Program-made: the position numbers and the translations under genes
The notes under the pieces: generated by a model
What the model saw: only the letters and a program-made list of their open reading frames with translations
The model's database searches: none
What the model was told of the DNA's origin: nothing
Shown: one piece after another, positions 19,695-37,126 of the stretch
Numbering within the stretch: position 1 is the stretch's first letter
Layout: each line of letters begins with the position of its first letter
From: Gammaproteobacteria bacterium Ga0074134
GTDB taxonomy: Bacteria; Pseudomonadota; Gammaproteobacteria; Ga0077554; Ga007554
NCBI GenBank assembly: GCA_001464965.1
Contig: LNEJ01000027.1
Coordinates: forward strand, 17,003 to 81,002
Direction of reading: 5' to 3'
Length of the DNA: 64,000 nt

Positions 19695-19707
19695 TAAACT
19701 GAAAAAG

Positions 19708-20070: not shown

Positions 20071-21528
20071 ATGAGTGACAAAAAGAAGCTGACCACCAAT
20101 GCTGGCTGTCCAGTAGCTCATAATCAGAACGTAATGACAGCCGGGCCACGTGGCCCGCAATTGCTGCAGGATGTCTGGTTCCTGGAAAAACTCGCCCATT
20201 TTGATCGCGAAGTGATCCCCGAACGACGCATGCACGCCAAGGGATCCGGTGCCTATGGCACGTTTACCGTTACGCACGACATTACGCAGTACACGCGGGC
20301 TAAAATCTTTTCCCAGATTGGCAAGAAAACTGAGCTATTCGCGCGTTTCACCACGGTGGCCGGTGAGCGTGGCGCGGCCGATGCCGAGCGCGACATTCGC
20401 GGTTTTGCCGTCAAGTTTTACACCGAGGAAGGCAACTGGGATATGGTCGGTAACAATACCCCGGTATTCTTCCTGCGTGATCCGCTCAAGTTCCCCGACC
20501 TGAACCACGCAGTCAAGCGCGACCCGCGCACCAATATGCGCAGCGCGAAGAACAACTGGGATTTCTGGACGTCCCTGCCGGAAGCCCTGCACCAGATCAC
20601 CATTGTCATGAGTGACCGTGGCATTCCGGCGACTTACCGGCACATGCACGGCTTCGGCAGCCACACTTTCAGCTTCATCAACGCAAAGAACGAGCGGTAC
20701 TGGGTCAAATTCCACTTCAAGTCGCAACAGGGCATCAGGAACTTGACCGATGCGGAAGCCGAGGCGATCATCGGCAAGGACCGCGAGAGCCATCAGCGCG
20801 ACCTCTACGAGAGCATCGAAAAGGGTGACTGCCCGAAATGGACGCTGATGGTGCAGATCATGCCTGAAGCCGACGCCGCGAAGGTGCCCTATAACCCCTT
20901 CGACCTCACTAAGATCTGGCCACACAAAGACTATCCGCTGATCGAGGTGGGCGTAATGGCGCTGAACCGCAATCCTGAAAACTTCTTCGCCGAAGTCGAA
21001 CAGTCGGCTTTCAATCCCGCCAACATTATACCGGGCATTGGTTTCTCGCCGGACAAGATGTTGCAGGGGCGGCTCTTCGCCTACGGTGATGCGCAGCGCT
21101 ATCGGCTAGGCGTGAATCACCACCTCATCCCCGTCAATGCTGCGCGCTGCCCCGTGCACAACTACCACCGCGACGGCACGATGCGCACCGATGGCAACTT
21201 TGGCAGCACGCTCGGCTACGAGCCCAACGACCAAGGCGAATGGGCTGAACAGCCGGACTACAGCGAACCACCGCTGGCGCTCTCGGGTGCCGCCAACCAC
21301 TGGAACCACCGTGAAGACAGCGACTATTACTCACAACCCGGCGCGCTGTTCCGTTTGATGAGTCCTGCACAGCAGCAGGTGTTGTTTGACAATACCGCGC
21401 GTTCCATTGGTGGAGCGCCTCACGGCATCCAGATTCGGCATGTTGGCAACTGCCTCAAGGCCGATCCTGCTTATGGCGAAGGCGTAGCCAAAGCACTGGG
21501 TATTTTGTTGAGTGAAATTCCGAGATAA
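20071..21528 (+). CDS. katA: monofunctional haem catalase (small-subunit, clade 3 type)
   Basis: 485 aa with [18 protein letters not shown]-type motifs ([24 protein letters not shown]) and the distal His/Asn and proximal Tyr regions. Confidence 0.9.
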
Positions 21529-21544
21529 ACAGTGCCGGTTAATT

Positions 21545-21650
21545 TCACGGTTATGCACCGTTCAGCATGGGCAGATTTGGCTGGCCGATAAGGACTGTGC
21601 GGTGCAGGTAGACTTGATGATGTTAAGGAACCTCTGAATAATGCAGAGGT
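21545..21650 (+). pseudogene. duplicated fragment of the yaeQ 3' end
   Basis: Translates to ...CTVQDGQIWLADK..VQVD.MML, about 80% nt identity to 19598-19665. The remainder of the yaeQ tail (cccatttacg) resumes at about 21927 after the inserted repeats. Confidence 0.5.
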
Positions 21651-21775
21651 TCCTCGGTACATGGAGGTGCTGGCATTTTTCGATCACGGAAAGTGATTTT
21701 AAAATGAAGAAAAGAAAAAACACACTATGCTTTTCGTGCTCTGAGAATTCCAGGATGGAATGATTCAGAGCTTCC
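21626..21775. repeat. family 1 repeat, copy C (full)
   Basis: Perfect hairpin ggaacctctgaataatgcagaggttcc plus the aatgaagaaaag...ctctgagaattccaggatggaatgattcagagcttccttaat module. Confidence 0.6.
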
Positions 21776-21926
21776 TTAATCCTACTGTGTCACAAAGCTA
21801 TCAAGGGATTGCAGCGCAAGGCAAAGTCGGGCGAAAAAGCGGAGTTTACATGGAGTAAATGAGCACAAGAGTCCGATTTTAACGCCGTAATGCGCCCTTC
21901 AGCGCTTTGTGACACAGTAGGATTAA
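21776..21926. repeat. 151-bp MITE-like element with perfect 23-bp terminal inverted repeats (ttaatcctactgtgtcacaaagc / gctttgtgacacagtaggattaa)
   Basis: The TIRs were read directly. The element abuts family 1 copy C and splits the duplicated yaeQ tail. Confidence 0.55.
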
Positions 21927-21983
21927 AAAACCCGTGGTCCCATTTACGGCCCCCTTGCTTTGTTTGATAGACTTAAAAAATCC

Positions 21984-22913
21984 ATGACAAATATTATCGT
22001 TGCTGCCTTGTACAAATTTGCAAAACTGCCTGACTACCGGGACATGCAGCCGGGTATGCTCGATTTTTGCGTCGCACAAGGGCTGAAGGGAACCCTGCTG
22101 CTTGCTGCCGAAGGCATTAACGGCACCGTCGCAGGCACCCGTGCCGGGATTGATGCCCTGATTGCATTTCTGCGCGCGGATGCGCGGCTTGCGGACTTGG
22201 AGCACAAGGAATCTTATGCCGCTGAAATGCCTTTTTACAGGATGAAGGTTCGCCTGAAAAAGGAAATCGTCACGCTGGGTGTGCCGGGCGTCGATCCAAA
22301 CGAGAAGGTCGGTATCCGGGTGGCCCCGGAAGATTGGAATGCCCTGATCTCTGACCCTGATGTGGTACTGATTGATACACGAAATGGCTATGAATACGAT
22401 ATTGGCACTTTTCGCGGTGCGGTTGATCCCGATACTGATACATTCCGCGAATTTCCGGACTATGTCAGCAAAAACCTCGACCCCGTAAAACATAAAAAGG
22501 TCGCCATGTTTTGCACCGGCGGCATTCGCTGTGAAAAAGCCACATCCTTCATGCTGGAGCAGGGATTCGAAGAGGTCTATCACCTGCAAGGTGGTATTCT
22601 AAAATATCTGGAAAAGATCCCCGCTGAAAAAAGCCTGTGGGAAGGCGAATGTTTTGTGTTTGACCAGCGTGTGGCTGTCGGGCATGGTCTGGCATTGGGT
22701 GAATATGACCAATGCCATGCCTGCCGTTACCCCGTGTCTCCACAAGAAAAAGCCTCGCCAAAATACCAGGAGGGCATATCCTGTCCACACTGTTTCGACT
22801 CTCTGACGGAAGAGAAGCGCGTCAGCTCGGCGGAGCGGCAAAAACAAGTCGAGTTGGCGCTCAAGCGGGGCACGGCACACCTCGGTGCGCCGCAGAAAAA
22901 GCGAGGCGCTTAA
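21984..22913 (+). CDS. trhO: rhodanese-domain tRNA U34 hydroxylase TrhO (YceA family)
   Basis: [18 protein letters not shown]... with the rhodanese active-site CTGGIRCEK and a C-terminal Cys cluster. Confidence 0.8.
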
Positions 22914-22988
22914 TGAGGAAAAGCAAAAATCATATTTTTTGCTTTTCGTGCTCTGAGAATTCCAGGATGGAATTATTCAGAGCTTTCT
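22913..22988. repeat. family 1 repeat, copy D (module 2 only)
   Basis: aatgaggaaaagcaaaaatcatattttttgcttttcgtgctctgagaattccaggatggaattattcagagc begins at the trhO stop codon. Confidence 0.5.
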
Positions 22989-22991
22989 ATA

Positions 22992-24461
22992 TCAAGATGA
23001 GCAACTCACTGTAATGTGACGAGCCCATTCCGGCGGCGTTGCAGCATAATCCTCCATCCCCGGCTGTTCGCTAAAAGGATCTTGGAGCAATTTCAACAGT
23101 CGGTCTACTTCTGAAAAATCGCGCCCCTGTTCGGCCTTGTTGATGGCGGTCTGCGCCAAATGATTGCGTAGAATGTACTTTGGATTGACTTTGTCCATGC
23201 GTATTTTGCGTTCCTCATCCGAACCTTGTTCCCGTTGCAAGCGGGCGCGGTAAGATTCACTCCAGGCATCGAACGCTGTGCGGTCTATGAATTGGTCGCG
23301 CAACGCAGTGTTTTTCTCGCCGGGTGCCGAGTTGAAATTTCCTAAGCCGCGGAACAGGTTGGTGTAGTCGGCCTGGCTGGTGTGCATCATCTCCAAAAGC
23401 GTATTAATCAGTGTATCGTCTTCCTTGCTTGCGTGAGCCAAGCCCAGCTTCTGCCCCATCAATTCCGTATAATGTTTGGCGTATGCCGGGCCATAGTTTT
23501 GAAGTGCTGCTTCCGCATCTTCCATCGCAATGACCGGCGTCAATGCCTGTGCCAGGCAGGCGAGATTCCATAGGCCGATTTGTGGCTGTTGATTATAGGC
23601 GTAGCGCCCGGCAGGGTCGGAATGGTTACAGATATAACCGGGATCGTAATTTTCCATGAAGCCGAACGGGCCATAATCAAAGGTGAGCCCCAGGATAGAC
23701 ATGTTGTCGGTGTTCATGACGCCGTGGGAGAATCCCACGGCTTGCCATCGGGCCATCAGGGTTGCGGTGCGCGTTACGACTTCATCGAGAAAGCGCGAGT
23801 ATTTGTCCGGTGCGTCCATCAAGGGTGGGAAATGCTTGGCGATCACGTAATCGGCAAGCATCGCAAGGAGCTGGTTCTGTCCACGATAAAAAAATACTTC
23901 AAATGAACCAAAGCGTACGTGCGAAGGCGCGATGCGCGTAACCACCGCAGCAGTTTCAGCGGTCTCGCGGTAAACCCTGTGATCGCTGCCCACGATACAC
24001 AGGGCGCGTGTGGTAGGGATGCCCAGGCCATGCATGGCCTCCGAGCACAAATACTCACGGATGCTGGAGCGAAGCACGGCGCGGCCATCGCCATTTCGCG
24101 AGTACGGGGTACGCCCGGCGCCTTTGAGCTGGATATCCCAGTATTCCCCCGCGCTATTCTTTATTTCACCGAGCAATACGGCGCGCCCATCTCCCAGTTG
24201 CGGCACATAGTGGCCAAACTGATGTCCCGCATAGAGCATCGCCAGCGGCTCGCAACCGGGCAGCAAACGGTTGCCGCTGAAATATTCAGCGAAGTCAGCG
24301 CGCTGGGTTTCGGCGCTGTCCAGGTCAATCAACGGGGCGGCGTTCGTGTTGAAGCTAACCAGATAGGGATCAGGCAACGGGGTGGGGTGGAGGCGGCTGT
24401 GGAATATGTCCGGCAGGCGGGCAAACGTATTATCAAATCCAAGCTGTTCAAGTTTTCGCAT
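22992..24461 (-). CDS. selO: protein adenylyltransferase SelO (YdiU/UPF0061)
   Basis: 489 aa. N-terminus ...FARLPDIF..; AGHQFGHYVPQLGDGRAVLLGE; the kinase-like fold motifs of SelO. Confidence 0.85.
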   Translation of the reverse strand: MRKLEQLGFDNTFARLPDIFHSRLHPTPLPDPYLVSFNTNAAPLIDLDSAETQRADFAEYFSGNRLLPGCEPLAMLYAGHQFGHYVPQLGDGRAVLLGEIKNSAGEYWDIQLKGAGRTPYSRNGDGRAVLRSSIREYLCSEAMHGLGIPTTRALCIVGSDHRVYRETAETAAVVTRIAPSHVRFGSFEVFFYRGQNQLLAMLADYVIAKHFPPLMDAPDKYSRFLDEVVTRTATLMARWQAVGFSHGVMNTDNMSILGLTFDYGPFGFMENYDPGYICNHSDPAGRYAYNQQPQIGLWNLACLAQALTPVIAMEDAEAALQNYGPAYAKHYTELMGQKLGLAHASKEDDTLINTLLEMMHTSQADYTNLFRGLGNFNSAPGEKNTALRDQFIDRTAFDAWSESYRARLQREQGSDEERKIRMDKVNPKYILRNHLAQTAINKAEQGRDFSEVDRLLKLLQDPFSEQPGMEDYAATPPEWARHITVSCSS

Positions 24462-24548
24462 TGCGTAATTGTAACAGGAGAATTATTGGGTGTTTGCGGT
24501 GCTGATATATAATGCCCGGTAATCTTTAGATGAACTCGAATCGAGGAT

Positions 24549-24938
24549 ATGAATATGCCGACGAAGAAATCACAACCCAATAACGACAAGCTGGACCGGA
24601 TCGTAGCCGAGGCCCAGCGCAACAAGGCGCAGCGGGAGTTGGGCTATCGGGAACAATCACTCAAGCTCTACCCCTGGATATGCGGACGGTGCATGCGCGA
24701 GTTCACCCGGGAAAATCTTCGGGAGCTCACCGTCCATCACCGGGACCACAATCACGACAATAATCCGTCCGATGGGAGCAACTGGGAGTTGCTATGTATT
24801 TATTGCCATGACAATGAGCACTCACGGTACCTGGATGCCGCTGGGCAGGGCGCTGTGACGCCGGGCAGCCAGCAAGAGAGCTCGGCCCAATTCAAACCGT
24901 TTGCCGATCTCAAGGCGCTGTTGAAGGGTAAAGAGTAG
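24549..24938 (+). CDS. yajD: HNH nuclease YajD family
   Basis: LKLYPWICGRCMREF...LRELTVHHRDHNHDNNPSDGSNWELLCIYCHDNEHS matches E. coli YajD closely. Confidence 0.75.
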   Translation: MNMPTKKSQPNNDKLDRIVAEAQRNKAQRELGYREQSLKLYPWICGRCMREFTRENLRELTVHHRDHNHDNNPSDGSNWELLCIYCHDNEHSRYLDAAGQGAVTPGSQQESSAQFKPFADLKALLKGKE

Positions 24939-24967
24939 CTGTTTTAGAGTCTGTTTAAGAGTGTCAA

Positions 24968-25492
24968 TTATGCCACTCTGCCGTAGGGCAGGGAGGATGA
25001 CTGATCGCGGCCTGCAACCCTTTCTGTTTGGATCATCCGCAACATCTGCAAGGCTTCCCGTGCGCTGTGCGACACATTCATTGGGCTTCCGGAAACACCG
25101 GCAACATGACCGCTTGGGTCGATAATGAAGGTGGCATACTCGGCCATACCCTCTTCCCCGGAGAGCACCCCAAAGCAGCTGGCGAGCTGGCGCGTGGCAT
25201 CGCCGATGAGGGGGAAGCCGATTTTGCCTAGACCGTTGGTGGTCCAGGCACGATGCGCATAAACGCTGTCCACGCTTGCACCGAGCAATATCGCGCCACT
25301 TTCCGTGAATTGCCTGGCCAGGTCGTGGTAGGCGCGGATGTTCATAAGGCAGGTAAAGGTGAAATCCCACTGCCAGAAGAACAGCACCTTCCATCGGCTG
25401 CGATGTTCACCCAGATTGATTATGCGGTAGTCGCCATGAGGGGTAAGGGCTTCGACGTTGATGGCAGGGATGGTTTGTCCGATGGTTAGCAT
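24968..25492 (-). CDS. AhpC/TSA-family peroxiredoxin-like protein with an atypical active-site context
   Basis: Thioredoxin-fold pattern KVLFFWQWDFTFTC. The Cys is followed by LMN, not the canonical PTE. Confidence 0.55.
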   Translation of the reverse strand: MLTIGQTIPAINVEALTPHGDYRIINLGEHRSRWKVLFFWQWDFTFTCLMNIRAYHDLARQFTESGAILLGASVDSVYAHRAWTTNGLGKIGFPLIGDATRQLASCFGVLSGEEGMAEYATFIIDPSGHVAGVSGSPMNVSHSAREALQMLRMIQTERVAGRDQSSSLPYGRVA

Positions 25493-25563
25493 AGCCGTGT
25501 CTCCTTCGTGGCGGTTGGGGTTTGATTATTTTCAGCCATAAAAAATATTCTACCCGTTCAATT

Positions 25564-25582
25564 GATAATGATTATCATTTAC
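25564..25582. promoter_or_regulatory. Fur box candidate
   Basis: GATAATGATTATCATTTAC matches the consensus GATAATGATAATCATTATC at 16 of 19 positions. It lies in an AT-rich stretch upstream of the peroxiredoxin-like gene. Confidence 0.45.
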
Positions 25583-25769
25583 ATTTACGGGTATTGTCAA
25601 GCCGCCTGGATGGATTTTTCCGCTTTTGTCTCTCCGGATGGGGTGAATTAGCCGCGCAAACCCTGCTCGAATTTCTGTGCCCTCTGTCCTTGATCGGCCG
25701 AATTTGGCCTGACAGTCATCACCAGAAAACCCGCTAACTGTCAGATCAGATCTGAACTTCTACAAACTC

Positions 25770-26267
25770 TCAGCCCTTGGCCGCCGCCAGCAACTGCTCG
25801 CGGCTAAGTGTATAGGCGCGGGCAAACCCGCCGACATAGCGCGCCTCGTGCGGCACGAGGCGAAACAGTGTGAAATCGTCGAAGCTGAACAGAGGCTCGG
25901 CGCACGGCAGATGATCGAGATAAAGGGCACGACCGGCCTGATAGTCAGCGCTGCCGCGTGGCAGTTGGACGACCTTGCCCTGGATGCTCACTCGCGCCAG
26001 GGTCTGCGGGTCAGCTTGTCCGGTATCTGGTTCACCGATCACCAGTGACGCCTGCGGATCAGTCAATAAATTGCGTGTGTGCGGCGCCAGCCGGCTGAGG
26101 TGCAGCAAAAAACCGCTGAAACCGGGCTCGCTTGCATAGGCGACCATCGATGCAAAGGGTGCACTGGCATCCAGCGTGGCGAGCGCTGCCCAGCGCTGGC
26201 TACGGATCAGTTGTGTCAAGCGTATCTGTTCTTCATGTTTCATGGTGGTTCGCTCTGAAAACGTCAA
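25770..26267 (-). CDS. pyridoxamine-5'-phosphate-oxidase-like FMN-binding family protein (HugZ/HutZ-like, possible haem utilisation)
   Basis: RWAALATLDASAPFASMVAYA...LAPHTRNLLTDPQASLVIGEP is a PNPOx-like split-barrel signature. The start may be M at 26243. Confidence 0.5.
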   Translation of the reverse strand: MTFSERTTMKHEEQIRLTQLIRSQRWAALATLDASAPFASMVAYASEPGFSGFLLHLSRLAPHTRNLLTDPQASLVIGEPDTGQADPQTLARVSIQGKVVQLPRGSADYQAGRALYLDHLPCAEPLFSFDDFTLFRLVPHEARYVGGFARAYTLSREQLLAAAKG

Positions 26268-26477
26268 AATGGAAGGCGGTACACGCCGCTATACAAAACG
26301 AAATGGTGATACCGCTATTTTGAATGTTAAATGTCGACTCTGCCATGGTCAGAATGACATGGGTGGTAATGGCGGCCATAGCGGGTTCCATTGCCTGGGT
26401 ATTGCTTGCCATCTCTTCGCGATAGAGGGTGGCGCCCCGCATTGATGGTTTTTGCCTTTCCATGGACGCTGGATTAG

Positions 26478-27314
<837 letters not shown>

Positions 27315-27343
27315 TTGATGGCTCTAAGGCGGAAAGGTACGCG

Positions 27344-28825
27344 ATGAAGCAGGAAGGCGGCAATCAGCAGGATCTCGAACAGTGGCGCCAGAAGTATTAT
27401 GACTCTCTGGAAAAAATGGAGCAAAAGCAGCAACAGTGGGAAGATTTGGAAAAAACCCTGCGCCGCTGCATTTCCCGTCTGGCACTGGCGGCGGACGGCA
27501 TCCACCCCGAGATTGACATCCAGCTAGAGAGTCTACGCAAGGCGATCCGGGACGGTGTGGGTGCCGCGGGATTACAGGATCGTATCGAGGGGATATCGCA
27601 AGCGCTGCTCAAGCTGGATCAGCAGCCTGCGCCAAGGCCAGCACCCACGGAAACTGTGGCTGTGGAAGGCCGTACTGAAGCGGCGGCGCCGGGCTTTTTG
27701 GGTAAATTGCTGGGCGGGTTGTCCCCGAAGGGGGGCCGCGAGACGCCGGTGGTTATGGAAGCCGCTCAGCCACGAGGCATTCCTTCCGAAGTTCACGAAG
27801 CCCTCGCCCAGCTATTGGAGCGCCTGGCGCTACAGCCCGAGATGACCGAGCAGGTGGAGATGCTCAAACAGCAGCTTGGAGAGGATATTGAGCCGGGCGC
27901 GCTTTCATCGTCATTGCAGTCCATTGCGGCATTGGTGGCTGATGCCCTGGGAAAGATCCGTAGCGAAAAAAGCGATCTTGAAGCATTCCTGCTTCAGCTC
28001 ACCGAGCGTTTGCAGGAGATCGATCAGCGCTTGTCCGATAATGCGGTAACGCAGCAGGCATCGCAGCAAAGCCAGCACCGGCTGGATGTTGCGGTGCATG
28101 CCCAGGTCGATGGTATCGAGACTACCATGAAGGAGGTCTCCGATATTGGCCAGTTAAAGCAGGCGATTCAGCGGCGTCTGGATGGAATACGCGAGCACAT
28201 GGATTCCTTCCGCCAGGATGAAACGCAGCGGCAGATTGATTCAAAGCATCAAATTGACGTGTTGACCTCCCGTTTGCGCGGCATGGAGAAAGAGATCAGC
28301 CAACTGCACAGCCGGGTGCGCAAGGAGCAGCAAAATGCCTTGGAAGATGCCTTGACGGGCATTCCCAACCGGATGGCCTATGAGAAACGGGTCGCGGAAG
28401 AATATGCGCGCTGGAGGCGCTTCCATGCGCCGCTGTCGATGATCGTTATCGATATCGATCACTTCAAGCGTGTTAACGACCAGTACGGGCACCAGGCAGG
28501 GGACAAGGTGATCAGGGTCATTGCCCAGGAGTTACGCAAGCAACTGCGTGATGTGGATTTCATGGCTCGCTATGGCGGGGAGGAATTCGTTATTCTGTTG
28601 CCGGAGACCAATATTCAAAATGCCGGAATCGTGGCGGATAAACTTTGCGCCGGTGTGCGTGGCTGTGAATTCCAGCACGGCGGGTCACGTGTGCCCATTA
28701 CTGTGAGCGGTGGGGTCGCCCAGTTTGGAGGAGTCGACACGGTGGCCCAGGTATTCGAGCGCGCCGATGTGGCACTGTATCGCAGCAAACATAAGGGGAG
28801 AGATCAGTGGAGCGTCGAGGAGTAG
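27344..28825 (+). CDS. diguanylate cyclase (GGDEF) with a long N-terminal coiled-coil region
   Basis: The C-terminal GGDEF domain has RYGGEEF and an RxxD I-site-like motif. The about 320-aa N-terminus is Gln/Glu/Leu-rich with no TM segment. Confidence 0.8.
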   Translation: MKQEGGNQQDLEQWRQKYYDSLEKMEQKQQQWEDLEKTLRRCISRLALAADGIHPEIDIQLESLRKAIRDGVGAAGLQDRIEGISQALLKLDQQPAPRPAPTETVAVEGRTEAAAPGFLGKLLGGLSPKGGRETPVVMEAAQPRGIPSEVHEALAQLLERLALQPEMTEQVEMLKQQLGEDIEPGALSSSLQSIAALVADALGKIRSEKSDLEAFLLQLTERLQEIDQRLSDNAVTQQASQQSQHRLDVAVHAQVDGIETTMKEVSDIGQLKQAIQRRLDGIREHMDSFRQDETQRQIDSKHQIDVLTSRLRGMEKEISQLHSRVRKEQQNALEDALTGIPNRMAYEKRVAEEYARWRRFHAPLSMIVIDIDHFKRVNDQYGHQAGDKVIRVIAQELRKQLRDVDFMARYGGEEFVILLPETNIQNAGIVADKLCAGVRGCEFQHGGSRVPITVSGGVAQFGGVDTVAQVFERADVALYRSKHKGRDQWSVEE

Positions 28826-29238
28826 GGCGTGCCATCGTGCTGTGGTTATTTTCGGCTGTATTGTTGCTGGCCGGAGGACTGCACTCTGCGGTGGCCAGTG
28901 CGGATGGTCAGCACCCCTTCGCTTTTGCCTTTTTTGGCGATAACGCGGCCAAACCACAAGGCCTGGGTGTTGTTTCCGTCAACGATCTTCCTCCTGAAGC
29001 GCGCGAGACGCTGAATCTCATCCATCGGGGCGGGCCGTTCCCCTATGGCAAGGACGGCTCGATCTTCGGTAACCGGGAAAAACGCCTACCCTTGCGTGAG
29101 CGCGGTTACTACAAGGAGTATACCGTCAAGACGCCCGGCTCCCGCGACCGCGGCGCCCGGCGGATTATCGGTGGGATGGGCGGAGAACTCTATTATACTG
29201 ATGATCACTACAACACTTTCAGGCGGATCAAGGAGTAG
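28807..29238 (+). CDS. secreted guanyl-specific ribonuclease, RNase Sa / barnase (N1/T1) family
   Basis: Signal peptide, then LPPEARETLNLIHRGGPFPYGKDGSIFGNREKRLP...GYYKEYTVKTPGSRDRGARRII, which aligns almost residue-for-residue with RNase Sa. The start overlaps the GGDEF gene end by 19 nt. Confidence 0.8.
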   Translation: MERRGVGRAIVLWLFSAVLLLAGGLHSAVASADGQHPFAFAFFGDNAAKPQGLGVVSVNDLPPEARETLNLIHRGGPFPYGKDGSIFGNREKRLPLRERGYYKEYTVKTPGSRDRGARRIIGGMGGELYYTDDHYNTFRRIKE

Positions 29239-29241
29239 CGT

Positions 29242-29685
29242 ATGGATAGCCTGCCCTCATTTTTGCGTGATAGCGAAGCCGCCGGGATGTATTTGCTTGA
29301 TACGGCGATTACCGCGATGGAGTTTGAAAGCGAGGCCAGGAAGTGTGGCTTCGCTTTTTTTTATCTGGAAGGAGGGAGCATCCTCAGTAAGGAGCAATTT
29401 TTGGAGCAGATCGCCCGCGCCATGGATTTTCCCGGCTATTTCGGTGGCAACTGGGACGCACTGGAAGACTGTCTCACGGATCTATCCTGGCGTGAAGCAC
29501 CAGGTTATGTGATTCTATACGACCATTTTGATGTTTTTGCCGAGCAGTTTCCGGATCAGTTCGAGACCGCGCTGGAAATTCTGGATGCGTCCATAGAGTT
29601 CTGGCGCGCGCAAGGTAAGCCGCTGTTTGTCATGTTGCGCGGAAAGGGTGGGCCGGAGTGGGGGTTGAAGCTGCTTACCTTCTAA
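29242..29685 (+). CDS. barstar-family ribonuclease inhibitor
   Basis: Barstar motifs ...FGGNWDALEDCLTDL... The start codon is 3 nt after the RNase stop. Confidence 0.75.
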   Translation: MDSLPSFLRDSEAAGMYLLDTAITAMEFESEARKCGFAFFYLEGGSILSKEQFLEQIARAMDFPGYFGGNWDALEDCLTDLSWREAPGYVILYDHFDVFAEQFPDQFETALEILDASIEFWRAQGKPLFVMLRGKGGPEWGLKLLTF

Positions 29686-29687
29686 GA

Positions 29688-29800
29688 ACCCTGTTCACGA
29701 TCTCGCTGAAGGGTGCATCGCGGCGTTAAAAATAGCCTCAAAATGCTCACATACTCCGTGTATGCTGCGCTTTTTCGGCTATTTTTGCCTTAACGGAGTG
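29688..29800. repeat. family 2 repeat (left half: gaaccctgttcacgatctcgctgaagggtgcatcgcggcgttaaaa...ctcaaaatgctcacatactc...)
   Basis: Matches the left TIR and core of the full copy at 36866-37008. The right TIR is absent. Confidence 0.45.
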
Positions 29801-29915
29801 AATGCCATAGACAGCAAGGGGCTTGGTAAAGTAGAATTCTGCTGATTAATCATAGCAATTATTGCAGCGGTGGGAGGGGTTTTATCCCGGTCTCCTGCCG
29901 CTTCGCACGTCTGAT

Positions 29916-31049
29916 GTGGAGGTAGTTTTGCGGCATCAAGCCCTGTTAGCCCTGGAAGATGGCAGCCTCTTTTGGGGTGAGTCCATCGGTATTGAGGGGC
30001 AGTCGACGGGGGAAGTGGTATTCAATACCGCTATCACCGGCTATCAGGAAATTCTCACCGATCCCTCCTATTGCAAGCAAATCGTTACCCTCACCTATCC
30101 GCACATTGGCAATACCGGCGTCAACAGTGAGGATGAAGAGTCCTCAAAAGTGATGGCCGGCGGCCTGGTAATACGCGATTTGCCGCTGCTGGCGAGCAGT
30201 TGGCGTTCTAAAGAGACTTTGGATGCCTACCTGCGCAGGCAGCAGGTGGTTGGCATCGCGGGCATCGACACTCGGCGTTTGACGCGCTTGCTGCGTGAAA
30301 AGGGCGCGCTGAGCGGCTGCATCATGGCGGGGAATGCCGACGAGGCGGCAGCGCTCGATGCCGCGCGCGCATTTCCGGGATTGAACGGCATGGATCTGGC
30401 CAAGGTGGTTACCACCGAGGCACCTTATCGCTGGGAACATGGAAGCTGGACACTGGGCGGCGCATCCGCTATTCCCGAGGCGCGTTTCCATGTGGTGGCC
30501 TACGATTATGGCGTCAAGCACAACATATTGCGCATGCTGGTGGATCGTGGCTGCCGTGTCACGGTAGTGCCGGCACAGACTCCGGCGTTTGAAGTGCTGG
30601 CCATGAAGCCAGACGGTGTATTTCTCTCCAACGGGCCGGGTGACCCGGCGCCGTGCGATTATGCCATTGCTGCGATCCACGTGATTGTCGAAACAGGTGT
30701 GCCGGTGTTCGGTATCTGTCTCGGCCATCAGCTGCTGGCCCTGGCCTGCGGCGCAAAAACCCTGAAAATGAAGTTTGGCCATCATGGCGCCAACCACCCG
30801 GTGCAGGATCTGGATACCGGGCGGGTGATGATAACCAGCCAGAATCACGGTTTTGCAGTGGATGATGCCAGCCTTCCCCCCACGCTGCGCGCGACACACC
30901 GCTCGCTGTTCGATGGCTCGCTACAGGGCATTCATCATACCGGCAGACCCGTCTTTAGTTTTCAGGGGCACCCCGAGGCGAGTCCTGGCCCGCACGATGC
31001 CGCGCCGCTGTTCGACCACTTCATTGATCTCATGAGAGGTAACAAGTGA
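29916..31049 (+). CDS. carA: carbamoyl-phosphate synthase small (glutaminase) subunit
   Basis: [17 protein letters not shown]...[19 protein letters not shown] and the GATase triad region GICLGHQLL. The start is probably GTG 29916 or TTG 29928, as judged from N-terminal homology. Confidence 0.85.
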
Positions 31050-31133
31050 CAAGCTGCATGTTGCAAGTTACAGATAAAACCCCTCATCGTTTTTCTCTCG
31101 CCACTTGTTGCCTGGGCTTGTAACTGATTCTTT

Positions 31134-34100
31134 ATGCCAAAACGTACCGACATCAAGACTATTTTAATCATCGGCGCTGGCCCCATTGTGATTGGCCAGG
31201 CCTGTGAGTTCGATTATTCCGGCGCGCAGGCCTGCAAGGCATTGCGCGAGGAAGGCTACCGCGTGGTGTTGATCAACTCCAACCCCGCCACCATCATGAC
31301 TGACCCGGAGACGGCCGACGCCACCTATATCGAGCCCATCACCTGGCAGGTGGTTGCCCGTATTATTGAAAAAGAACGCCCCGACGCGCTATTACCCACC
31401 ATGGGCGGGCAGACCGCGCTCAACTGCGCACTCGACCTGGTGCGTGAGGGTGTGCTGGAGAAATACGGTGTGGAGATGATCGGCGCCACGCGCGACGCCA
31501 TCGACATGGCCGAAGACCGCGACCGCTTCCGTCGCGCAATGCGCGACATTGGCCTTGGCAGCGCGCGCGCGGCGATTGCACACAGCATGGAAGAGGCGTT
31601 GCAGGTGCAGGTGCAGATCGGCTTCCCCACCATTATCCGTCCCTCGTTCACAATGGGCGGCAGCGGCGGCGGCATCGCCTATAACCGCGAGGAATTTGTT
31701 GAGATCTGTGAGCGCGGGCTGGATCTTTCACCGACCAAGGAGCTGCTGATCGAGGAATCGCTGCTCGGCTGGAAGGAATTCGAGATGGAGGTGGTGCGTG
31801 ACCGCAAGGACAACTGCATCATCATTTGTTCCATCGAGAACTTCGACCCGATGGGTGTGCACACGGGTGATTCCATCACCGTTGCACCCGCCCAGACGCT
31901 GACTGACAAAGAATATCAGCTGCTGCGCGATGCCTCCATCGCGGTGTTGCGCAAGATCGGCGTCGATACCGGCGGTTCCAATGTGCAGTTCGCCATCAAT
32001 CCCCACGACGGGCGCATGATCGTCATCGAGATGAATCCGCGCGTATCGCGCTCCTCGGCGCTGGCCTCCAAGGCTACCGGTTTCCCCATCGCCAAGGTGG
32101 CGGCCAAGCTCGCGGTAGGTTATACCCTGGACGAGCTGCGCAACGAGATCACCGGTGGCGCCACCCCGGCGTCGTTCGAGCCATCTATAGATTATGTAGT
32201 AACCAAGGTGCCACGCTTCACCTTTGAAAAATTCCCTAAGGCCGACCAGCGTCTCACCACTCAGATGAAGTCAGTGGGCGAGGTGATGGCAATAGGCCGC
32301 ACCTTCCAGGAATCGCTGCAAAAGGCATTGCGCGGGCTGGAGACCGGGGCGGACGGGCTGAACGAAAAGCTTGATCTTACCTTGCCGGAGTCCATTGATC
32401 GCATCCGTAACGAGTTGCGCACGCCGGGGCCGGATCGCGTCTGGTTTGTGGGTGACGCCTTCCGTGCCGGCTTGTCCTCCGGGGAAATTCACGAACTGAG
32501 CCAGATTGATCCCTGGTTTCTGGCGCAGATCGAGGACCTTATCAAGAGCGAGGCGGAGGTGCGTGCCTCGGGGCAGTCAAGGCTTGATAAGGCGCGTGTC
32601 TTCGCGCTCAAGCGCAAGGGCTTTTCCGACCGCCGCCTCGCAACTCTGCTGGGTGTTAGCGAGAACGAGTTCCGCGCGCGGCGCCATGCGCTGGGTGTGC
32701 GCCCGGTATACAAGCGTGTGGATTCCTGCGCCGCTGAATTCGCTTCGGCCACGGCGTACATGTATTCCACATATGAAGAAGAGTGCGAGGCCGCACCCAC
32801 TTCCCGTGACAAGATCATGGTGCTCGGTGGCGGACCCAACCGCATCGGGCAGGGCATCGAATTTGACTATTGCTGCGTCCATGCCGCGTTCGCCCTGCGC
32901 GAGGATGGCTATGAAACCATCATGGTCAATTGCAATCCCGAGACCGTCTCTACCGACTACGACACCTCGGACCGCCTTTACTTCGAGCCGCTTACCCTGG
33001 AAGATGTGCTTGAAATCATCGCCGTGGAAAAACCCAAGGGCGTGATCGTGCAATACGGCGGGCAGACGCCGCTCAAGCTGGCGCGCGCCCTGGAGGCGGC
33101 TGGCGCCCCGATCATCGGCACCACACCGGATTGCATCGACATCGCCGAGGATCGTGAGCGCTTCCAGCAGATGATCAACACACTGGGGCTGCGCCAGCCG
33201 CCGAACCGCACTGCGCGCCACCCCGAGGCAGCGGTGGAGCTGGCGAAGCAGATCGGCTATCCGCTGGTGGTGCGGCCTTCCTATGTGCTGGGTGGGCGCG
33301 CCATGGAGATTGTCTACAACGAGGATGACCTGCGCCGCTACATGCGTGACGCCGTACAGGTCTCCAACGATTCCCCGGTGCTGCTCGACCGCTTCCTGGA
33401 TGACGCCACCGAGGTGGATGTGGATGCCATCAGCGATGGCGTGGACGTGTTGATCGGCGGTATCATGGAGCATATTGAACAGGCCGGCGTGCATTCCGGT
33501 GACTCGGCGTGTTCGCTGCCGCCCTACAGCTTGAGCGCCGGAATTCAGGATGAATTGCGCGAGCAGATCCGCCAGATGGCCTCCGCCCTGGGTGTGGTGG
33601 GACTGATGAACGTTCAATTCGCCATTCAGGGTGACAAGGTTTTCGTCCTTGAGGTCAATCCACGTGCTTCCCGCACCGTCCCTTATGTCTCCAAGGCGAC
33701 GGGGCGGCCCCTGGCCAAAATCGCCGCGCGCTGTATGGTAGGGCGCAGCCTGGTCAGCCAAGGGGTTACACAAGAAGTGATTCCAGATTACTATTCCGTC
33801 AAAGAGGCGGTGTTCCCCTTCATCAAATTCCCTGGCGTCGATCCGATCCTGGGGCCTGAGATGAAATCCACCGGTGAGGTGATGGGCGTGGGGCGCAGCT
33901 TCGCCGAGGCGTTTGCCAAGTCGCAGGAGGCCGCGGGCATTACCCTGCCGCGTGGCGGCCGTGCTTTTATCAGCGTGCGTGAGGCAGACAAGCCTCGCGT
34001 GGCGGCAGTGGCGCGCGACCTTGTGGCGCTTGGCTTCAAGGTTCTCGCTACCCGCGGTACGGCGAAGATTCTGGAAGGCGAGGGTGTGCCTTGCATTAAA

Positions 34101-34370
34101 GTAAACAAGGTTGCCGAGGGCCGCCCCCACATTGTCGATATGATTAAAAACGACGAAATCAGTCTGATTATCAACACTACGGAAGGCAAGCAGGCGATTG
34201 CGGATTCCTATGAAATCCGGCGTGCCGCATTGCAGCACAAAGTCACCCACAGCACTACACTGGCTGGCGCCAGGGCGACGTGCCTGGCCCTGCGGCAACC
34301 GGATGACCGCGCGGTGAATCGTTTGCAGGATCTGCATCAGGAATTACTCGGGAGAAAGATAACAGCATGA
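31134..34370 (+). CDS. carB: carbamoyl-phosphate synthase large subunit
   Basis: 1078 aa with duplicated ATP-grasp halves and a C-terminal MGS-like domain. Confidence 0.95.
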
Positions 34371-34843
34371 GCAAAGTGCCGATGACAGCGAAGGGCGCGC
34401 AGCAGTTGCGCGAAGAGCTGCAGGAATTAAAGAGCGTTGCAAGGCCGCGCGTTATCCAGGCTATCGCAGAGGCCCGCGCGCATGGCGACCTGAAGGAAAA
34501 TGCCGAATATGCCGCCGCCAAGGAACAACAAAGTTTTATTGAAGGGCGCATCTCGGAAATCGAGGGGCAACTCTCCAACGCCCAGATCATTGATGTTGCG
34601 ACAGTGAATGCCAATGGCAGGATCGTCTTTGGCACCACGGTGGATCTGGTGAACGTCAAGACCAGCGAGGAAGTAACCTATCAGATCGTAGGTGATCTGG
34701 AGGCCGACATCAAGCAAGGCAAAATCTCGATCAGCTCTCCCATCGCCCGCGCCCTGATCGGCAAGGAAGAGGGCGACATCGCCGTGGTGCGTGCGCCGGG
34801 TGGTGAAATCGAGTATGAGATTGCGGCTGTAAAATATATATGA
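34367..34843 (+). CDS. greA: transcription elongation factor GreA
   Basis: [20 protein letters not shown]...[20 protein letters not shown]. Confidence 0.9.
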
Positions 34844-34848
34844 GCCAG

Positions 34849-35112
34849 AGCCTATCCGTAAATAAATCACCCCTGCGTTGCCGCCCCAAAACGCGCCAGG
34901 CAAGGCGCGAGGAGAGAAATTTGGTGATTCCAAATGAACGACGAGCAACGCCGCCTGGCGTGTTTTGGGGCGCAACCCGAAGGGACGGGGCCGGTTTTGA
35001 GCAGTGCGGCGTCACGCTTCGCTCATGTGCAACAAGCACACTACGCTCAGCCTTCCTTGCCCTGCTCAAAACCGGTCTCCGTCGCAGGGATGATTTATTT
35101 ACGGATAGGCTC
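34849..35112. mobile_element. 264-bp MITE-like element with about 30-bp terminal inverted repeats, copy 1
   Basis: gagcctatccgtaaataaatcacccctgcg ... cgcagggatgatttatttacggataggctc. The interior is the reverse complement of the interior of the 46461-46726 copy. Confidence 0.65.
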
Positions 35113-35116
35113 TAAC

Positions 35117-35584
35117 ATGCGTTTCGCGCTCGTCAGTGAACGGATTTTGTTGACCCTGTGGGTCGGTGGCCTGTGGGGTATCGGTTACCTCGCCGTGCCG
35201 GTGCTGTTTAATATGCTCAATGACCGGCAGTTGGCAGGGGAGCTTGCCGGGAAAATGTTCAGCATCACCAGCATCATAGGTTTGGTGTTCGGCGTTTTGC
35301 TGTTGATAGGCGCGATTTACCGGGCGGGCGACAAATGGACCCGTGCCTGGCGGGTGTGGACGCTGTTCGCCATGCTGGCGTTTGTTGCCGTCAGTTTCTT
35401 TGTTTTGCAGCCGATGATGCAGGACCTCAAAGCCCATGGTCTGGTTGAAGGCAGCGCCCAGGCGGCGAGCTTTGGACGGCTGCACGGAATTTCGTCGATA
35501 CTGTATCTGGCGACCAGCCTGCTGGGGGTGGGGCTGGTGATTGCAGGTCCAGGCGGGAAACGGCCTTCCAGGTATACGCTTTAG
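35117..35584 (+). CDS. DUF4149-family integral membrane protein
   Basis: Four predicted TM helices, MRFALVSERILLTLWVGGLWGIGYLAVPVLF... The start lies immediately after the MITE, and the ORF-track 5' extension is MITE sequence. Confidence 0.6.
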   Translation: MRFALVSERILLTLWVGGLWGIGYLAVPVLFNMLNDRQLAGELAGKMFSITSIIGLVFGVLLLIGAIYRAGDKWTRAWRVWTLFAMLAFVAVSFFVLQPMMQDLKAHGLVEGSAQAASFGRLHGISSILYLATSLLGVGLVIAGPGGKRPSRYTL

Positions 35585-35618
35585 AGCCGGTTCACGATCT
35601 CGCTGAAGGGCGCCCCGC
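35584..35618. repeat. family 2 repeat, short fragment (ggttcacgatctcgctgaagggcgc)
   Basis: Matches the left TIR region of 36866-37008. Confidence 0.3.
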
Positions 35619-35653
35619 CAAGCTTTGCGCCGCAACCCAATACATTGTCCCTC

Positions 35654-36856: not shown

Positions 36857-36865
36857 AATAGTCCT

Positions 36866-37008: not shown

Positions 37009-37126
37009 TATAAAAAAGCATGACGAAACGCCGGATTAGTGGCGAAAAACGCATGGTCTGATAAATGCATTATGGCCAGTGTTGGGTTGATATATACTGT
37101 ATTTCTCTTAAAGCTGAGGCGCACAC

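What the first reader, a model, noticed from the sequence alone, without database searches (positions are those of the whole stretch)
27344..29685. Secreted RNase Sa/barnase-family ribonuclease and barstar, translationally coupled to a coiled-coil GGDEF cyclase, wedged between dapB and carAB
The 143-aa ORF aligns almost residue-for-residue with Streptomyces RNase Sa (NLI..GPFPY..DG..F.NRE..LP....YY.EYTV.TPG.R.RG.RRI) and has a Sec signal. The next ORF, 3 nt downstream, has the barstar signature (G.NWDAL.DCLT). The RNase start overlaps the GGDEF gene stop by 19 nt, so the three genes look like one transcript. dapB-carA are normally adjacent or only loosely separated, so this reads as an inserted module. 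A secreted guanyl-RNase with a cytoplasmic immunity protein is a toxin/antitoxin-like, possibly interbacterial-competition, pair. Its co-transcription with a c-di-GMP synthase is not an arrangement I recognise as described. The whole trio is followed by a family 2 repeat copy.
Basis: partly seen in the sequence, partly recalled or inferred. Interest (0 to 1): 0.6.

Follow-up and report, generated by a model that had tools for sequence, protein, structure and literature searches.

The report
Exported RNase–barstar pair behind a cyclase
An ordinary two-gene cassette, an exported guanine-specific RNase plus its intracellular inhibitor barstar, has docked onto the end of a resident c-di-GMP synthase gene next to dapB in a small group of uncultured Gammaproteobacteria; the gene context is new, but nothing shows it is more than shared transcription.

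Summary
27344-28825 encodes a cytoplasmic DGCcoil+GGDEF diguanylate cyclase (GGEEF and RxxD intact). 28807-29238 encodes a signal-peptide-bearing RNase Sa-family enzyme (PF00545 3e-24; PDB RNase Sa 2e-28; all catalytic and guanine-binding residues kept). 29242-29685 encodes barstar (PF01337 6e-30; Y/D/D inhibitory residues kept). The 19-nt and 3-nt junctions and both Shine-Dalgarno motifs are real, and the overlap is conserved in relatives.

Relatives fall into three clades. Clades A and B carry dapB-DGC-RNase-barstar. Clade C carries dapB-DGC with no RNase or barstar and no relic of them. So the cyclase, a short DgcP-like enzyme, is a resident partner of dapB, and only the RNase-barstar pair is the added unit. 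It was apparently gained once and then inherited vertically.

Elsewhere the same cassette stands alone or sits tightly behind unrelated genes (aspS, a histidine kinase) or between IS elements. None of 80 other GGDEF loci carries it. No toxin-delivery domain is present. The downstream repeat is an independent MITE.

Best reading: a classical exported RNase with a cytoplasmic inhibitor, riding on the dapB-DGC transcript. A functional link to c-di-GMP or 2',3'-cGMP signalling is possible but unsupported.

The parts
26511..27314 (+). dapB (dihydrodipicolinate reductase), 267 aa. It is the invariant upstream partner of the cyclase and lies 29 nt before the cyclase start.
   Evidence: Pfam DapB_N 3e-42 and DapB_C 5e-46. 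dapB precedes the DGC in L001, L093, L007, L094, L008 and L097.
27344..28825 (+). DgcP-like diguanylate cyclase, 493 aa: N-terminal coiled coil (DGCcoil) plus GGDEF domain. GGEEF at residues 411-415 and RxxD I-site (RDVD) at 402-405. No signal peptide or transmembrane segment is visible.
   Evidence: Pfam GGDEF 5e-41 and DGCcoil 2e-25. NCBIfam GGDEF domain 1e-45. Motif positions. 37% and 33% identity to the two ends of a Pseudomonas DsbA/Exo_endo_phos-linked 679-aa DGCcoil-GGDEF protein.
28793..28800 (+). Shine-Dalgarno-like AAGGGGAG, 6 nt before the RNase start. It is formed by the conserved K-G-R codons at the cyclase C-terminus.
   Evidence: Sequence. K484, G485 and R486 are invariant in 15 cyclase orthologues, including those with no RNase downstream.
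28807..29238 (+). Exported guanyl-specific RNase of the Sa/T1/barnase (PF00545) family, 143 aa. Sec-type leader about residues 1-30 (28807-28896), conserved linker PFAFAFFGDNAAKP, catalytic domain residues 54-143. It overlaps the cyclase gene by 19 nt.
   Evidence: PF00545 3e-24. RNase Sa 2e-28. N39, R40, E41, E54, R65, R69, H85 and Y86 equivalents all conserved, with the Sa disulfide cysteines absent. ATG at the same position in L093 and L094.
29242..29685 (+). Barstar-family RNase inhibitor, 147 aa, with no leader, so cytoplasmic. It has an N-terminal extension of about 37 aa before the barstar domain. AAGGAG at 29230-29235 serves as the ribosome-binding site.
   Evidence: PF01337 6e-30. Weak direct match to Bacillus barstar, E 0.005, with P-x-Y-x-G-x-N-x-D-A-L-x-D-C-L-T aligned, so Y66, D72 and D76 correspond to barstar Y29, D35 and D39.
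29686..29800 (.). Truncated copy of a MITE-like palindromic intergenic repeat. It is not part of the RNase module.
   Evidence: Other copies at 36858-36995, 21770-21930 (reverse) and a partial copy at 35574-35618. Full copies fold into long hairpins, -52 to -90 kcal/mol. L001 and L004 have the complete element at this site, the window lacks 40 nt of it, and L093 has an empty site here but a copy between dapB and the DGC.
29808..29837 (+). Promoter-like site for carA (TAGACA-18 nt-TAGAAT). It marks the downstream boundary of the dapB-DGC-RNase-barstar unit.
   Evidence: 10 of 12 match. The motif CCATAGACAG...TA(G/A)AAT is conserved upstream of carA in L093 and in the RNase-less L008.
29928..31049 (+). 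carA (carbamoyl-phosphate synthase small chain). The likely TTG start is at 29928, not the longer ORF starting at 29862.
   Evidence: Pfam CPSase_sm_chain 2e-51 and GATase 2e-55. The gene is called at 373 aa in L001 and L093.

Best explanation
The RNase and barstar genes form a classical, self-contained pair: an exported RNase and its cytoplasmic inhibitor.

How it works (inferred from the family):
- The RNase is made with a Sec-type leader and exported to the periplasm, and possibly beyond.
- There it cuts single-stranded RNA after G through a 2',3'-cyclic phosphate intermediate.
- Barstar stays in the cytoplasm and plugs the active site of any enzyme that folds before export, which protects the producer's RNA.

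How it came to be here:
- The pair was acquired once, by the common ancestor of two clades of uncultured Gammaproteobacteria.
- It landed directly behind a resident diguanylate cyclase gene that already sat downstream of dapB. That cyclase is a short DgcP-like GGEEF enzyme.
- The pair has no obvious promoter of its own. It is expressed by read-through from dapB-DGC, probably with translational coupling through the 19-nt overlap and the SD inside the cyclase's last codons.

Shown: the gene identities, conserved catalytic and inhibitory residues, junction anatomy, and distribution among relatives. Inferred: export, the enzymatic products, co-transcription, and that the link to the cyclase is shared expression rather than shared biochemistry.
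For: Identity:
- PF00545, PF01337, GGDEF and DGCcoil all score far above their cut-offs.
- RNase Sa match at 2e-28, with all catalytic and guanine-binding residues kept.
- Barstar Y, D and D residues kept.

Export is the family norm: all 17 inspected homologues carry N-terminal hydrophobic leaders, some with lipoboxes.

Distribution:
- Clade A (window, L001, L093) and clade B (L007, L094-L096) have dapB-DGC-RNase-barstar.
- Clade C (L008/L009, L097) has dapB-DGC only.
- There is no relic in L008. Its cyclase stop lies about 26 nt from the conserved carA promoter motif.

Co-divergence between clades A and B: DGC 66-68%, RNase 62-63%, barstar 62-64%, dapB 83-85%.

Single origin: the linker motif FxxxFFxDNA is found only in these RNases, and an NJ tree groups them.

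The cassette is autonomous and promiscuous. It stands alone in L098 and L101, overlaps the aspS stop by 4 nt in L099, lies 20 nt after a histidine kinase in L100, and sits between IS elements on an IncC plasmid in L102. L103 and L104 are further contexts without GGDEF.

0 of 80 other GGDEF loci contain an RNase or barstar.

There is no terminator-like site between the DGC and the RNase, and the first promoter-like site lies after barstar.
Against: - The DGC-RNase overlap and gene order have been kept across lineages whose proteins have diverged to about 63-67% identity. That could reflect selection for co-expression rather than inertia.
- Gain in the A+B ancestor and loss in clade C are equally parsimonious on present data.
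- No transcript data were examined, and the promoter scan is crude.
- Export was judged by eye, not with a predictor.
Confidence: 0.68

Rival explanations
1. Functional coupling of two guanine-nucleotide signals. The operon would deliberately co-express a c-di-GMP synthase with a G-specific RNase whose products feed into, or act alongside, c-di-GMP control of biofilm and motility. Those products are 2',3'-cGMP, G>p-terminated oligonucleotides, or salvaged guanosine. Alternatively, the exported RNase remodels extracellular RNA in the matrix when c-di-GMP is high.
For: - The gene order and the 19-nt overlap are conserved in two clades that diverged to about 63-67% protein identity.
- In E. coli, the periplasmic RNase I generates 2',3'-cNMPs that modulate biofilm and motility (PMC8765455).
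- In Ralstonia, an RNase T1 homologue (RSc2766) makes 2',3'-cGMP from mRNA in vitro, and an evolved GGDEF domain converts 2',3'-cGMP to 2',3'-c-di-GMP (PMC10667535).
Against: - The linkage is confined to one narrow lineage, and the sister clade keeps dapB-DGC without the RNase.
- 0 of 80 other GGDEF loci and 0 of 7 other RNase contexts show the pairing.
- The cyclase has FMARYGGEEF, with the canonical Y and E at the positions that the Ralstonia paper found to discriminate GTP use from 2',3'-cGMP use. It does not have LLARLGGD(Q/E)F.
- The RNase is exported and its cytoplasmic form is inhibited by barstar, so enzyme and cyclase are in different compartments.
Confidence: 0.15
2. Interbacterial competition toxin with an immunity protein. 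The RNase would be secreted to kill neighbouring bacteria, and barstar would act as the immunity protein, as with Tox-Barnase/Imm-Barstar in polymorphic toxin systems.
For: - The toxin-then-immunity gene order and the barstar pairing match the 'simple barnase-barstar gene pairs' that Zhang et al. discuss as an incipient toxin-immunity arrangement (PMC3482391).
- The cassette also occurs between IS elements on a conjugative plasmid.
Against: - The protein consists only of a leader, a 20-aa linker and a 90-aa catalytic domain. It has no RHS, filamentous-haemagglutinin, T6SS, T7SS or colicin-type receptor or translocation domain with which to enter a target cell.
- There are no extra toxin or immunity cassettes downstream, only a MITE and then carA.
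- It sits stably in a core-gene neighbourhood and shows vertical co-divergence rather than polymorphism.
- There are no PADLOC hits.
Confidence: 0.1
3. One reading: cyclase, RNase and barstar are a single three-gene module inserted between the normally adjacent dapB and carA.
For: All three genes lie between dapB and carA in the window and in L093, tightly packed on one strand.
Against: - dapB-DGC occurs without RNase and barstar, both with carA downstream (L008/L009) and without it (L097).
- dapB-DGC-RNase-barstar occurs without carA (L007, L094-L096).
- Composition is not foreign.
- The cyclase is therefore a resident gene linked to dapB, not part of a mobile trio.
Confidence: 0.04

Closest known systems
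RNase Sa of Streptomyces aureofaciens (PDB 1RGG; complex with barstar 1AY7) and relatives Sa2 and Sa3
   Same: About 60% identity over the 88-residue catalytic domain. Identical guanine-binding (N-R-E) and catalytic (E54, R65, R69, H85, Y86) residues. Made with a leader for export. Inhibited by a barstar-type protein.
   Different: The host is Gram-negative, so the first destination is the periplasm. It lacks the C7-C96 disulfide. It has a clade-specific linker, PFAxAFFxDNAAxP, between the leader and the domain. Its gene overlaps a cyclase gene.
Barnase-barstar of Bacillus amyloliquefaciens
   Same: Same logic: an exported G-preferring RNase followed immediately by a gene for a cytoplasmic inhibitor that uses an acidic DxxxD helix. 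The window's barstar keeps the Y29, D35 and D39 equivalents.
   Different: The RNase is nearer to Sa than to barnase (barnase E about 1e-3). The barstar is 147 aa with an N-terminal extension of about 37 aa, and is only weakly similar to Bacillus barstar (E 0.005).
DgcP (PA14_72420) of Pseudomonas aeruginosa, a polar FimV-dependent diguanylate cyclase (PMC7033161)
   Same: DGCcoil N-terminal region plus a GGEEF GGDEF domain. 33-37% identity to both ends of a Pseudomonas DsbA/Exo_endo_phos-linked homologue. More distant orthologues (L010, L011) keep the dsbA-Exo_endo_phos context.
   Different: 493 aa rather than 671-679 aa, with about 190 residues of the central coil missing. It is linked to dapB rather than to dsbA/Exo_endo_phos. 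Interaction with FimV is untested. That the Pseudomonas locus is dgcP itself rests on my recollection of the PAO1 gene order, together with the length and domain match.
Tox-Barnase / Imm-Barstar in polymorphic toxin systems (Zhang et al. 2012, PMC3482391)
   Same: Same toxin and immunity domain families and the same toxin-then-immunity gene order.
   Different: No N-terminal trafficking or repeat domains, no cassette arrays, no polymorphism. [quoted passage not shown]
2',3'-cNMP signalling: E. coli RNase I (PMC8765455) and Ralstonia RSc2766 / RSp0334 (PMC10667535)
   Same: An exported or T1-type RNase whose cyclic-phosphate products affect biofilm and motility. In Ralstonia, a GGDEF-domain enzyme acts on 2',3'-cGMP.
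   Different: No genetic linkage of the RNase and the GGDEF gene is mentioned in the passages I read. The window's GGDEF has the canonical RYGGEEF motif rather than LLARLGGDQF. A dedicated barstar is present here.

Membership tests
Microbial guanyl-specific RNase, N1/T1/Sa/barnase family (PF00545) | Profile match above the curated threshold | tested here: met
   85.7 bits against a cut-off of 24, E 3.3e-24, covering 8-97 of 98 profile positions.
Microbial guanyl-specific RNase, N1/T1/Sa/barnase family (PF00545) | Catalytic Glu/Arg/His triad and guanine-recognition loop (RNase Sa E54, R65, R69, H85, Y86; N39-R40-E41) | tested here: met
   All eight positions are identical in the window, L093, L007 and L094.
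Microbial guanyl-specific RNase, N1/T1/Sa/barnase family (PF00545) | Close sequence similarity to an experimentally solved member | tested here: met
   RNase Sa chains at E 2e-28 to 2e-27 over residues 54-141. No structure prediction was run.
Microbial guanyl-specific RNase, N1/T1/Sa/barnase family (PF00545) | G-specific endoribonuclease activity, and export | not testable with these tools
   The leader was judged by inspection (basic n-region, hydrophobic core, AVA|SA). Homologues also carry leaders.
Barstar (PF01337) | Profile match above the curated threshold | tested here: met
   103.5 bits against a cut-off of 23.4, E 6e-30, covering 2-95 of 96 profile positions.
Barstar (PF01337) | Acidic DxxxD inhibitory helix with the preceding aromatic residue (barstar Y29, D35, D39) | tested here: met
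   Y66, D72 and D76 in PGYFGGNWDALEDCLT align with PEYYGENLDALWDCLT. The DxxxD signature is as listed in PMC3482391.
Barstar (PF01337) | Encoded immediately next to its RNase; cytoplasmic | tested here: met
   3 nt downstream of the RNase stop. No hydrophobic N-terminal segment in the sequence. The same adjacency is seen in L093, L007, L094 and L098-L101.
DgcP-type diguanylate cyclase (DGCcoil + GGDEF) | DGCcoil (PF20975) N-terminal region followed by a GGDEF domain with an intact GG(D/E)EF | tested here: met
   DGCcoil 1.7e-25 and GGDEF 5.2e-41. GGEEF at 411-415 and RxxD at 402-405.
DgcP-type diguanylate cyclase (DGCcoil + GGDEF) | Orthologous genomic context (cytochrome c, dsbA, Exo_endo_phos, dgcP) and full length of about 670 aa | tested here: not met
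   The window gene follows dapB and is 493 aa. The dsbA/Exo_endo_phos context is seen in L010, L011 and L020. I therefore file it as DgcP-like, not as the DgcP orthologue.
DgcP-type diguanylate cyclase (DGCcoil + GGDEF) | FimV-dependent polar localisation and activity | not testable with these tools
   Property reported for P. aeruginosa DgcP in PMC7033161.
Polymorphic or contact-dependent toxin system (Tox-Barnase/Imm-Barstar) | N-terminal trafficking, repeat or translocation domain on the toxin; arrays of alternative toxin and immunity cassettes | tested here: not met
   The only Pfam domain is PF00545, in a 143-aa protein. There is a single barstar, followed by a MITE and carA.
Type II toxin-antitoxin system | Cytoplasmic toxin that acts on the producer when a labile antitoxin decays | tested here: not met
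   The toxin carries a conserved export leader in all four DGC-linked copies and in 13 other homologues. Gene order is toxin first.
'Evolved' GGDEF acting on 2',3'-cGMP (RSp0334 type) | LLARLGGD(Q/E)F motif (L, L and D at the positions equivalent to WspR A247, Y250 and E253) | tested here: not met
   The window has F-M-A-R-Y-G-G-E-E-F, that is M, Y and E at those positions. The criterion comes from PMC10667535.

The most novel reading that the evidence does not exclude
The conserved, translationally coupled dapB-DGC-RNase-barstar operon may be a real signalling unit. A c-di-GMP synthase would be co-expressed with a guanine-specific RNase whose 2',3'-cGMP or G>p products, or salvaged guanosine, act together with c-di-GMP on the switch between biofilm and motility. 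Barstar would set how much RNase activity is allowed inside the cell. This would be a genetically hard-wired link between canonical c-di-GMP signalling and RNase-derived 2',3'-cyclic nucleotide signalling.
Probability: 0.1. Interest if true: 0.65.

Novelty: new member of a known kind. Interest (0 to 1): 0.3.

Why it matters
If the link is only shared transcription, the locus is a tidy example of how a promoter-less RNase-inhibitor cassette settles onto the 3' end of a host operon. It re-uses the host gene's last codons as its ribosome-binding site. That is useful for annotation but not surprising.

It would matter more if co-expression with the cyclase is selected. 2',3'-cGMP made by T1-type RNases has only recently been proposed as a bacterial signal that affects biofilm and motility, and no genetic link to c-di-GMP enzymes turned up in the literature searched here. 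This operon would then offer a compact three-gene system in which to test that connection.

Tried and rejected
1. A genome-contig scan with the full-length cyclase alignment. It returned 80 mostly unrelated GGDEF loci and not even the window's own lineage. These were usable only as a negative background.
2. A metagenome-contig scan with the orthogroup-specific N-terminal alignment. The tool chose weak patterns, and only one 1.9-kb locus was confirmed, so it gave no survey.
3. An RNase phylogeny to polarise origin. The catalytic domain is about 77-81% identical across unrelated phyla, so resolution is poor. Only the shared linker motif and the weak NJ grouping support a single origin.
4. The terminator-like hairpin inside barstar (29326-29358 plus a T-run). 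It is not conserved in L093, L007 or L094, and its T-run encodes FAFFY, so I rejected it as chance.
5. An Rfam scan of 20000-38000 at E<=0.1 found nothing. There is no riboswitch and no known RNA for the repeat.
6. PADLOC gave only weak coiled-coil noise (LmuB, DruC) for the cyclase and nothing for the RNase or barstar.
7. A plasmid search found only 16 distant hits, so the cassette is not mainly plasmid-borne.
8. Literature on dgcP-dsbA adjacency found nothing usable in the library. That point rests on tool-derived synteny plus my own recollection.
9. Structure prediction was not run, because 60% identity to solved RNase Sa made it unnecessary.
Full report
**1. Checking the observation**

The three ORFs are present exactly as described.

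Pfam results:
- 27344-28825 (493 aa): GGDEF (5.2e-41) plus the DGC-associated coil PF20975 (1.7e-25).
- 28807-29238 (143 aa): PF00545 Ribonuclease (3.3e-24).
- 29242-29685 (147 aa): PF01337 Barstar (6e-30).
- The flanking genes are dapB (26511-27314) and carA.

The RNase matches solved RNase Sa chains at E about 2e-28, with roughly 60% identity over residues 54-141. An alignment shows that every RNase Sa guanine-binding and catalytic residue is kept (N39, R40, E41, E54, R65, R69, H85, Y86). The Sa disulfide cysteines are absent.

Barstar is only weakly similar to Bacillus barstar directly (E 0.005). Its motif PGYFGGNWDALEDCLT still aligns with PEYYGENLDALWDCLT, which puts Y66, D72 and D76 on barstar Y29, D35 and D39.

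The cyclase has GGEEF at 411-415 and an RxxD I-site (RDVD) at 402-405.

Junctions, read from the sequence:
- The RNase GTG at 28807 overlaps the cyclase stop codon by 19 nt and is preceded by AAGGGGAG.
- The barstar ATG lies 3 nt after the RNase stop and is preceded by AAGGAG.
- In relatives the same position carries ATG, and the 19-nt overlap is kept. This supports the chosen start.

The RNase N-terminus has the look of a Sec leader: a basic n-region, a hydrophobic core and AVA|SA. This is by inspection only. All 17 homologues I looked at have comparable leaders, some with lipoboxes.

**2. Source and relatives**

Identical copies of the locus occur in activated-carbon and drinking-water metagenomes (L001-L006). 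The nearest named records are MAGs labelled only 'Gammaproteobacteria bacterium'.

Context look-ups for cyclase orthologues define three clades:

| Clade | Loci | Gene order |
|---|---|---|
| A | window, L001, L093 (cyclase 91% identical in L093) | dapB-DGC-RNase-barstar-carA-carB-greA |
| B | L007, L094-L096 (66-68%) | dapB-DGC-RNase-barstar, then convergent unrelated genes; no carA |
| C | L008/L009, L097 (62-63% by global alignment) | dapB-DGC with no RNase or barstar; carAB-greA follows in L008 but not in L097 |

- The invariant pair is dapB-DGC. The variable unit is the two-gene RNase-barstar cassette.
- L008 shows no relic of the cassette. Its cyclase stop lies about 26 nt from a promoter-like motif (CCATAGACAG...TAAAAT) that is conserved upstream of carA in the window and in L093.

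Pairwise identities:

| Protein | A vs B | A vs C | B vs C |
|---|---|---|---|
| dapB | 83-85% | 81-82% | 79-80% |
| DGC | 66-68% | 62-63% | 61-62% |
| RNase | 62-63% | absent in C | absent in C |
| barstar | 62-64% | absent in C | absent in C |

- These values fit a ((A,B),C) relationship.
- They also fit vertical co-inheritance of the cassette since the A/B ancestor.
- The RNases of clades A and B share a linker motif (FxxxFFxDNA) seen in no other of the top 120 homologues. A low-resolution NJ tree also groups them.
- GC and GC3 of the RNase (0.59 and 0.65) and barstar (0.53 and 0.62) fall within or close to the range of their neighbours. Nothing suggests recent transfer.
- Gain in the A/B ancestor and loss in clade C remain equally parsimonious.

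**3. What the cyclase is**

More distant full-length homologues (43-46% identity) sit after dsbA and an Exo_endo_phos gene (L010, L011). A Pseudomonas locus has the order cytochrome c, DsbA, Exo_endo_phos, then a 679-aa DGCcoil-GGDEF protein.

- This matches the length and domain layout of DgcP (671 aa, GGEEF), the FimV-dependent polar cyclase of P. aeruginosa (PMC7033161).
- By my recollection it also matches the PA5487-PA5489 gene order.
- The window protein aligns to both ends of the Pseudomonas protein, at 33% over the first 85 aa and 37% over the last 350 aa. It lacks about 190 central residues.
- I therefore call it DgcP-like, not the DgcP orthologue.

**4. Is the RNase-cyclase link general?**

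- None of 80 other GGDEF loci fetched from reference genomes contains an RNase Sa or barstar homologue within about 6 kb.
- Seven independent RNase contexts were sampled, and none has a GGDEF neighbour:
  - L098 and L101 are stand-alone pairs.
  - L099 overlaps the aspS stop by 4 nt.
  - L100 lies 20 nt after a histidine kinase.
  - L102 sits between IS elements on an IncC plasmid.
  - L103 and L104 are on Paraburkholderia replicons.
- The cassette is therefore autonomous. It often lacks room for its own promoter and commonly docks on the 3' end of whatever gene lies upstream.
- In the window its SD is built from the K-G-R codons of the cyclase C-terminus. Those codons are invariant even in orthologues with no RNase downstream, so the cassette exploited a pre-existing sequence.

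**5. Transcription signals**

The simple scan finds no terminator-like site between the cyclase and the RNase. The only good promoter-like site on the + strand is at 29808-29837, after barstar and before carA.

The dapB-DGC spacer is 29 nt in the window. It is 44-179 nt in clades A and B, and up to 425 nt in clade C.

A strong-looking hairpin with a T-run inside barstar (29326-29358) is not conserved and is probably chance.

Rfam finds nothing in 20000-38000.

**6. The repeat**

The sequence after barstar (29686-29800) is a truncated copy of a MITE-like palindromic element of about 140-165 nt.

- Further copies lie at 36858-36995 and 21770-21930 (reverse), with a partial copy at 35574-35618.
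- Full copies fold into long hairpins.
- L001 and L004, which are protein-identical to the window, carry the complete element at this site. The window's copy lacks 40 nt.
- L093 has an empty site here but has a copy between dapB and the DGC.
- L008 has a reverse copy in the carA leader.
- The element moves independently and says nothing about the origin of the RNase module.

**7. Mechanism**

Best supported (confidence about 0.68) is a classical exported RNase with a cytoplasmic inhibitor.

- The pre-RNase is exported by Sec. Barstar neutralises any enzyme that folds before export.
- Outside the cytoplasm the enzyme cleaves RNA after G through 2',3'-cyclic phosphate intermediates, most likely for nucleic-acid scavenging.
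- Expression rides on the dapB-DGC transcript, with translational coupling.
- Identity, residues, anatomy and distribution are shown. Export, products, co-transcription and the lack of biochemical coupling are inferred.

Rivals:
- **Real coupling to c-di-GMP or 2',3'-cGMP signalling (0.15).**
  - Precedents are E. coli RNase I (PMC8765455) and the Ralstonia RSc2766/RSp0334 system (PMC10667535).
  - The window's GGDEF motif is canonical (RYGGEEF).
  - The RNase and the cyclase are in different compartments.
  - The linkage is confined to one lineage.
- **Interbacterial toxin and immunity (0.10).** This is disfavoured because there is no delivery domain and no polymorphism.
- **The three-gene inserted module (0.04).** This is contradicted by clade C.

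**8. Novelty and score**

The RNase and barstar are new members of very large known families. The cyclase is a shortened DgcP-like enzyme.

The gene context, a DGC overlapping an RNase-barstar pair, is not described in the searched literature and is conserved in at least four species-level lineages. Comparative evidence still points to opportunistic docking. Interest is 0.3. The most novel reading, a hard-wired link between c-di-GMP and RNase-derived 2',3'-cGMP signalling, has a probability of about 0.1.

Noticed in passing
window 29686-29800, 36858-36995, 21770-21930 (reverse), partial copy 35574-35618; also L093 5822-5970 and L008 about 7680-7860: A MITE-like palindromic intergenic element of about 140-165 nt. 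It has a conserved core (…GCTGAAGGGYGCATCGCGGCGTTAAAA…CGCTTTTTCGG…) and variable outer arms that still pair. Occupancy differs between near-identical strains: there is a 40-nt deletion in the window relative to L001 and L004, and L093 has an empty site. It has no Rfam match.
   Followed up: partly
window 3295-3385, 16587-16631, 21693-21780, 22902-22992, 54291-54373: A second dispersed repeat family of about 90 nt, made of two short hairpins (GAAAAGCAAAAATCA…TTTTGCTTTTC and CTCTGAGAATTCCAGG…GGAATTATTCAGAG). Where gene ends were checked the copies lie near them (for example around 21528 and 22913), and they look like REP or terminator elements.
   Followed up: no
window 34847-35113 and 46453-46732: Two inverted copies (94% identical over 230 nt) of a third element of about 265-280 nt. 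Each copy is bounded by its own 31-38-nt terminal inverted repeats. One copy lies just after greA.
   Followed up: no
window 19594-19882 versus 21552-21626, 21976-22024 and 22522-22658: Segments around the UPF0176/rhodanese gene (21960-22913), including its first codons ([13 protein letters not shown]), are duplicated upstream of the catalase gene (20071-21528). This suggests that the catalase gene was inserted or rearranged into a duplicated region.
   Followed up: no
window 7181-8182, inside ORF 6564-8423: Six in-frame copies of a repeat at a spacing of about 180 nt (60 aa), within a 619-aa ORF. It is probably a beta-propeller or FG-GAP-type repeat protein. L093 has a Big_5/FG-GAP_2 protein nearby.
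   Followed up: no
window 29326-29368, inside barstar: A 13-bp stem followed by T8 that looks like an intrinsic terminator inside the barstar coding region. It is not conserved in L093, L007 or L094, and the T-run encodes FAFFY, so it is probably chance.
   Followed up: yes
window 28897-28965 (RNase residues about 31-53): A linker motif, PFAxAFFxDNAAxP, lies between the leader and the catalytic domain. It is conserved only in the cyclase-linked RNases of clades A and B. It may be a pro-segment or sorting signal, and its role is unknown.
   Followed up: partly
L010 5184-7824, L011 5240-7488, L020 5117-8031: In more distant relatives the DgcP-type cyclase gene directly abuts, or overlaps by a few nt, an upstream Exo_endo_phos (endonuclease/exonuclease/phosphatase family) gene. 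This cyclase family is thus tightly packed with a possible nuclease or phosphatase gene in a second, independent arrangement.
   Followed up: partly
window 29862-29927: The longest carA ORF starts at TTG 29862, but relatives and gene calls support TTG 29928, which is preceded by GGAGG. The skipped stretch contains a conserved hairpin (about 29864-29901, GCAGCGGTGGGAGGGG…CCGGTCTCCTGCCGC) in the carA leader. In L008 a MITE is inserted within the corresponding palindrome.
   Followed up: partly
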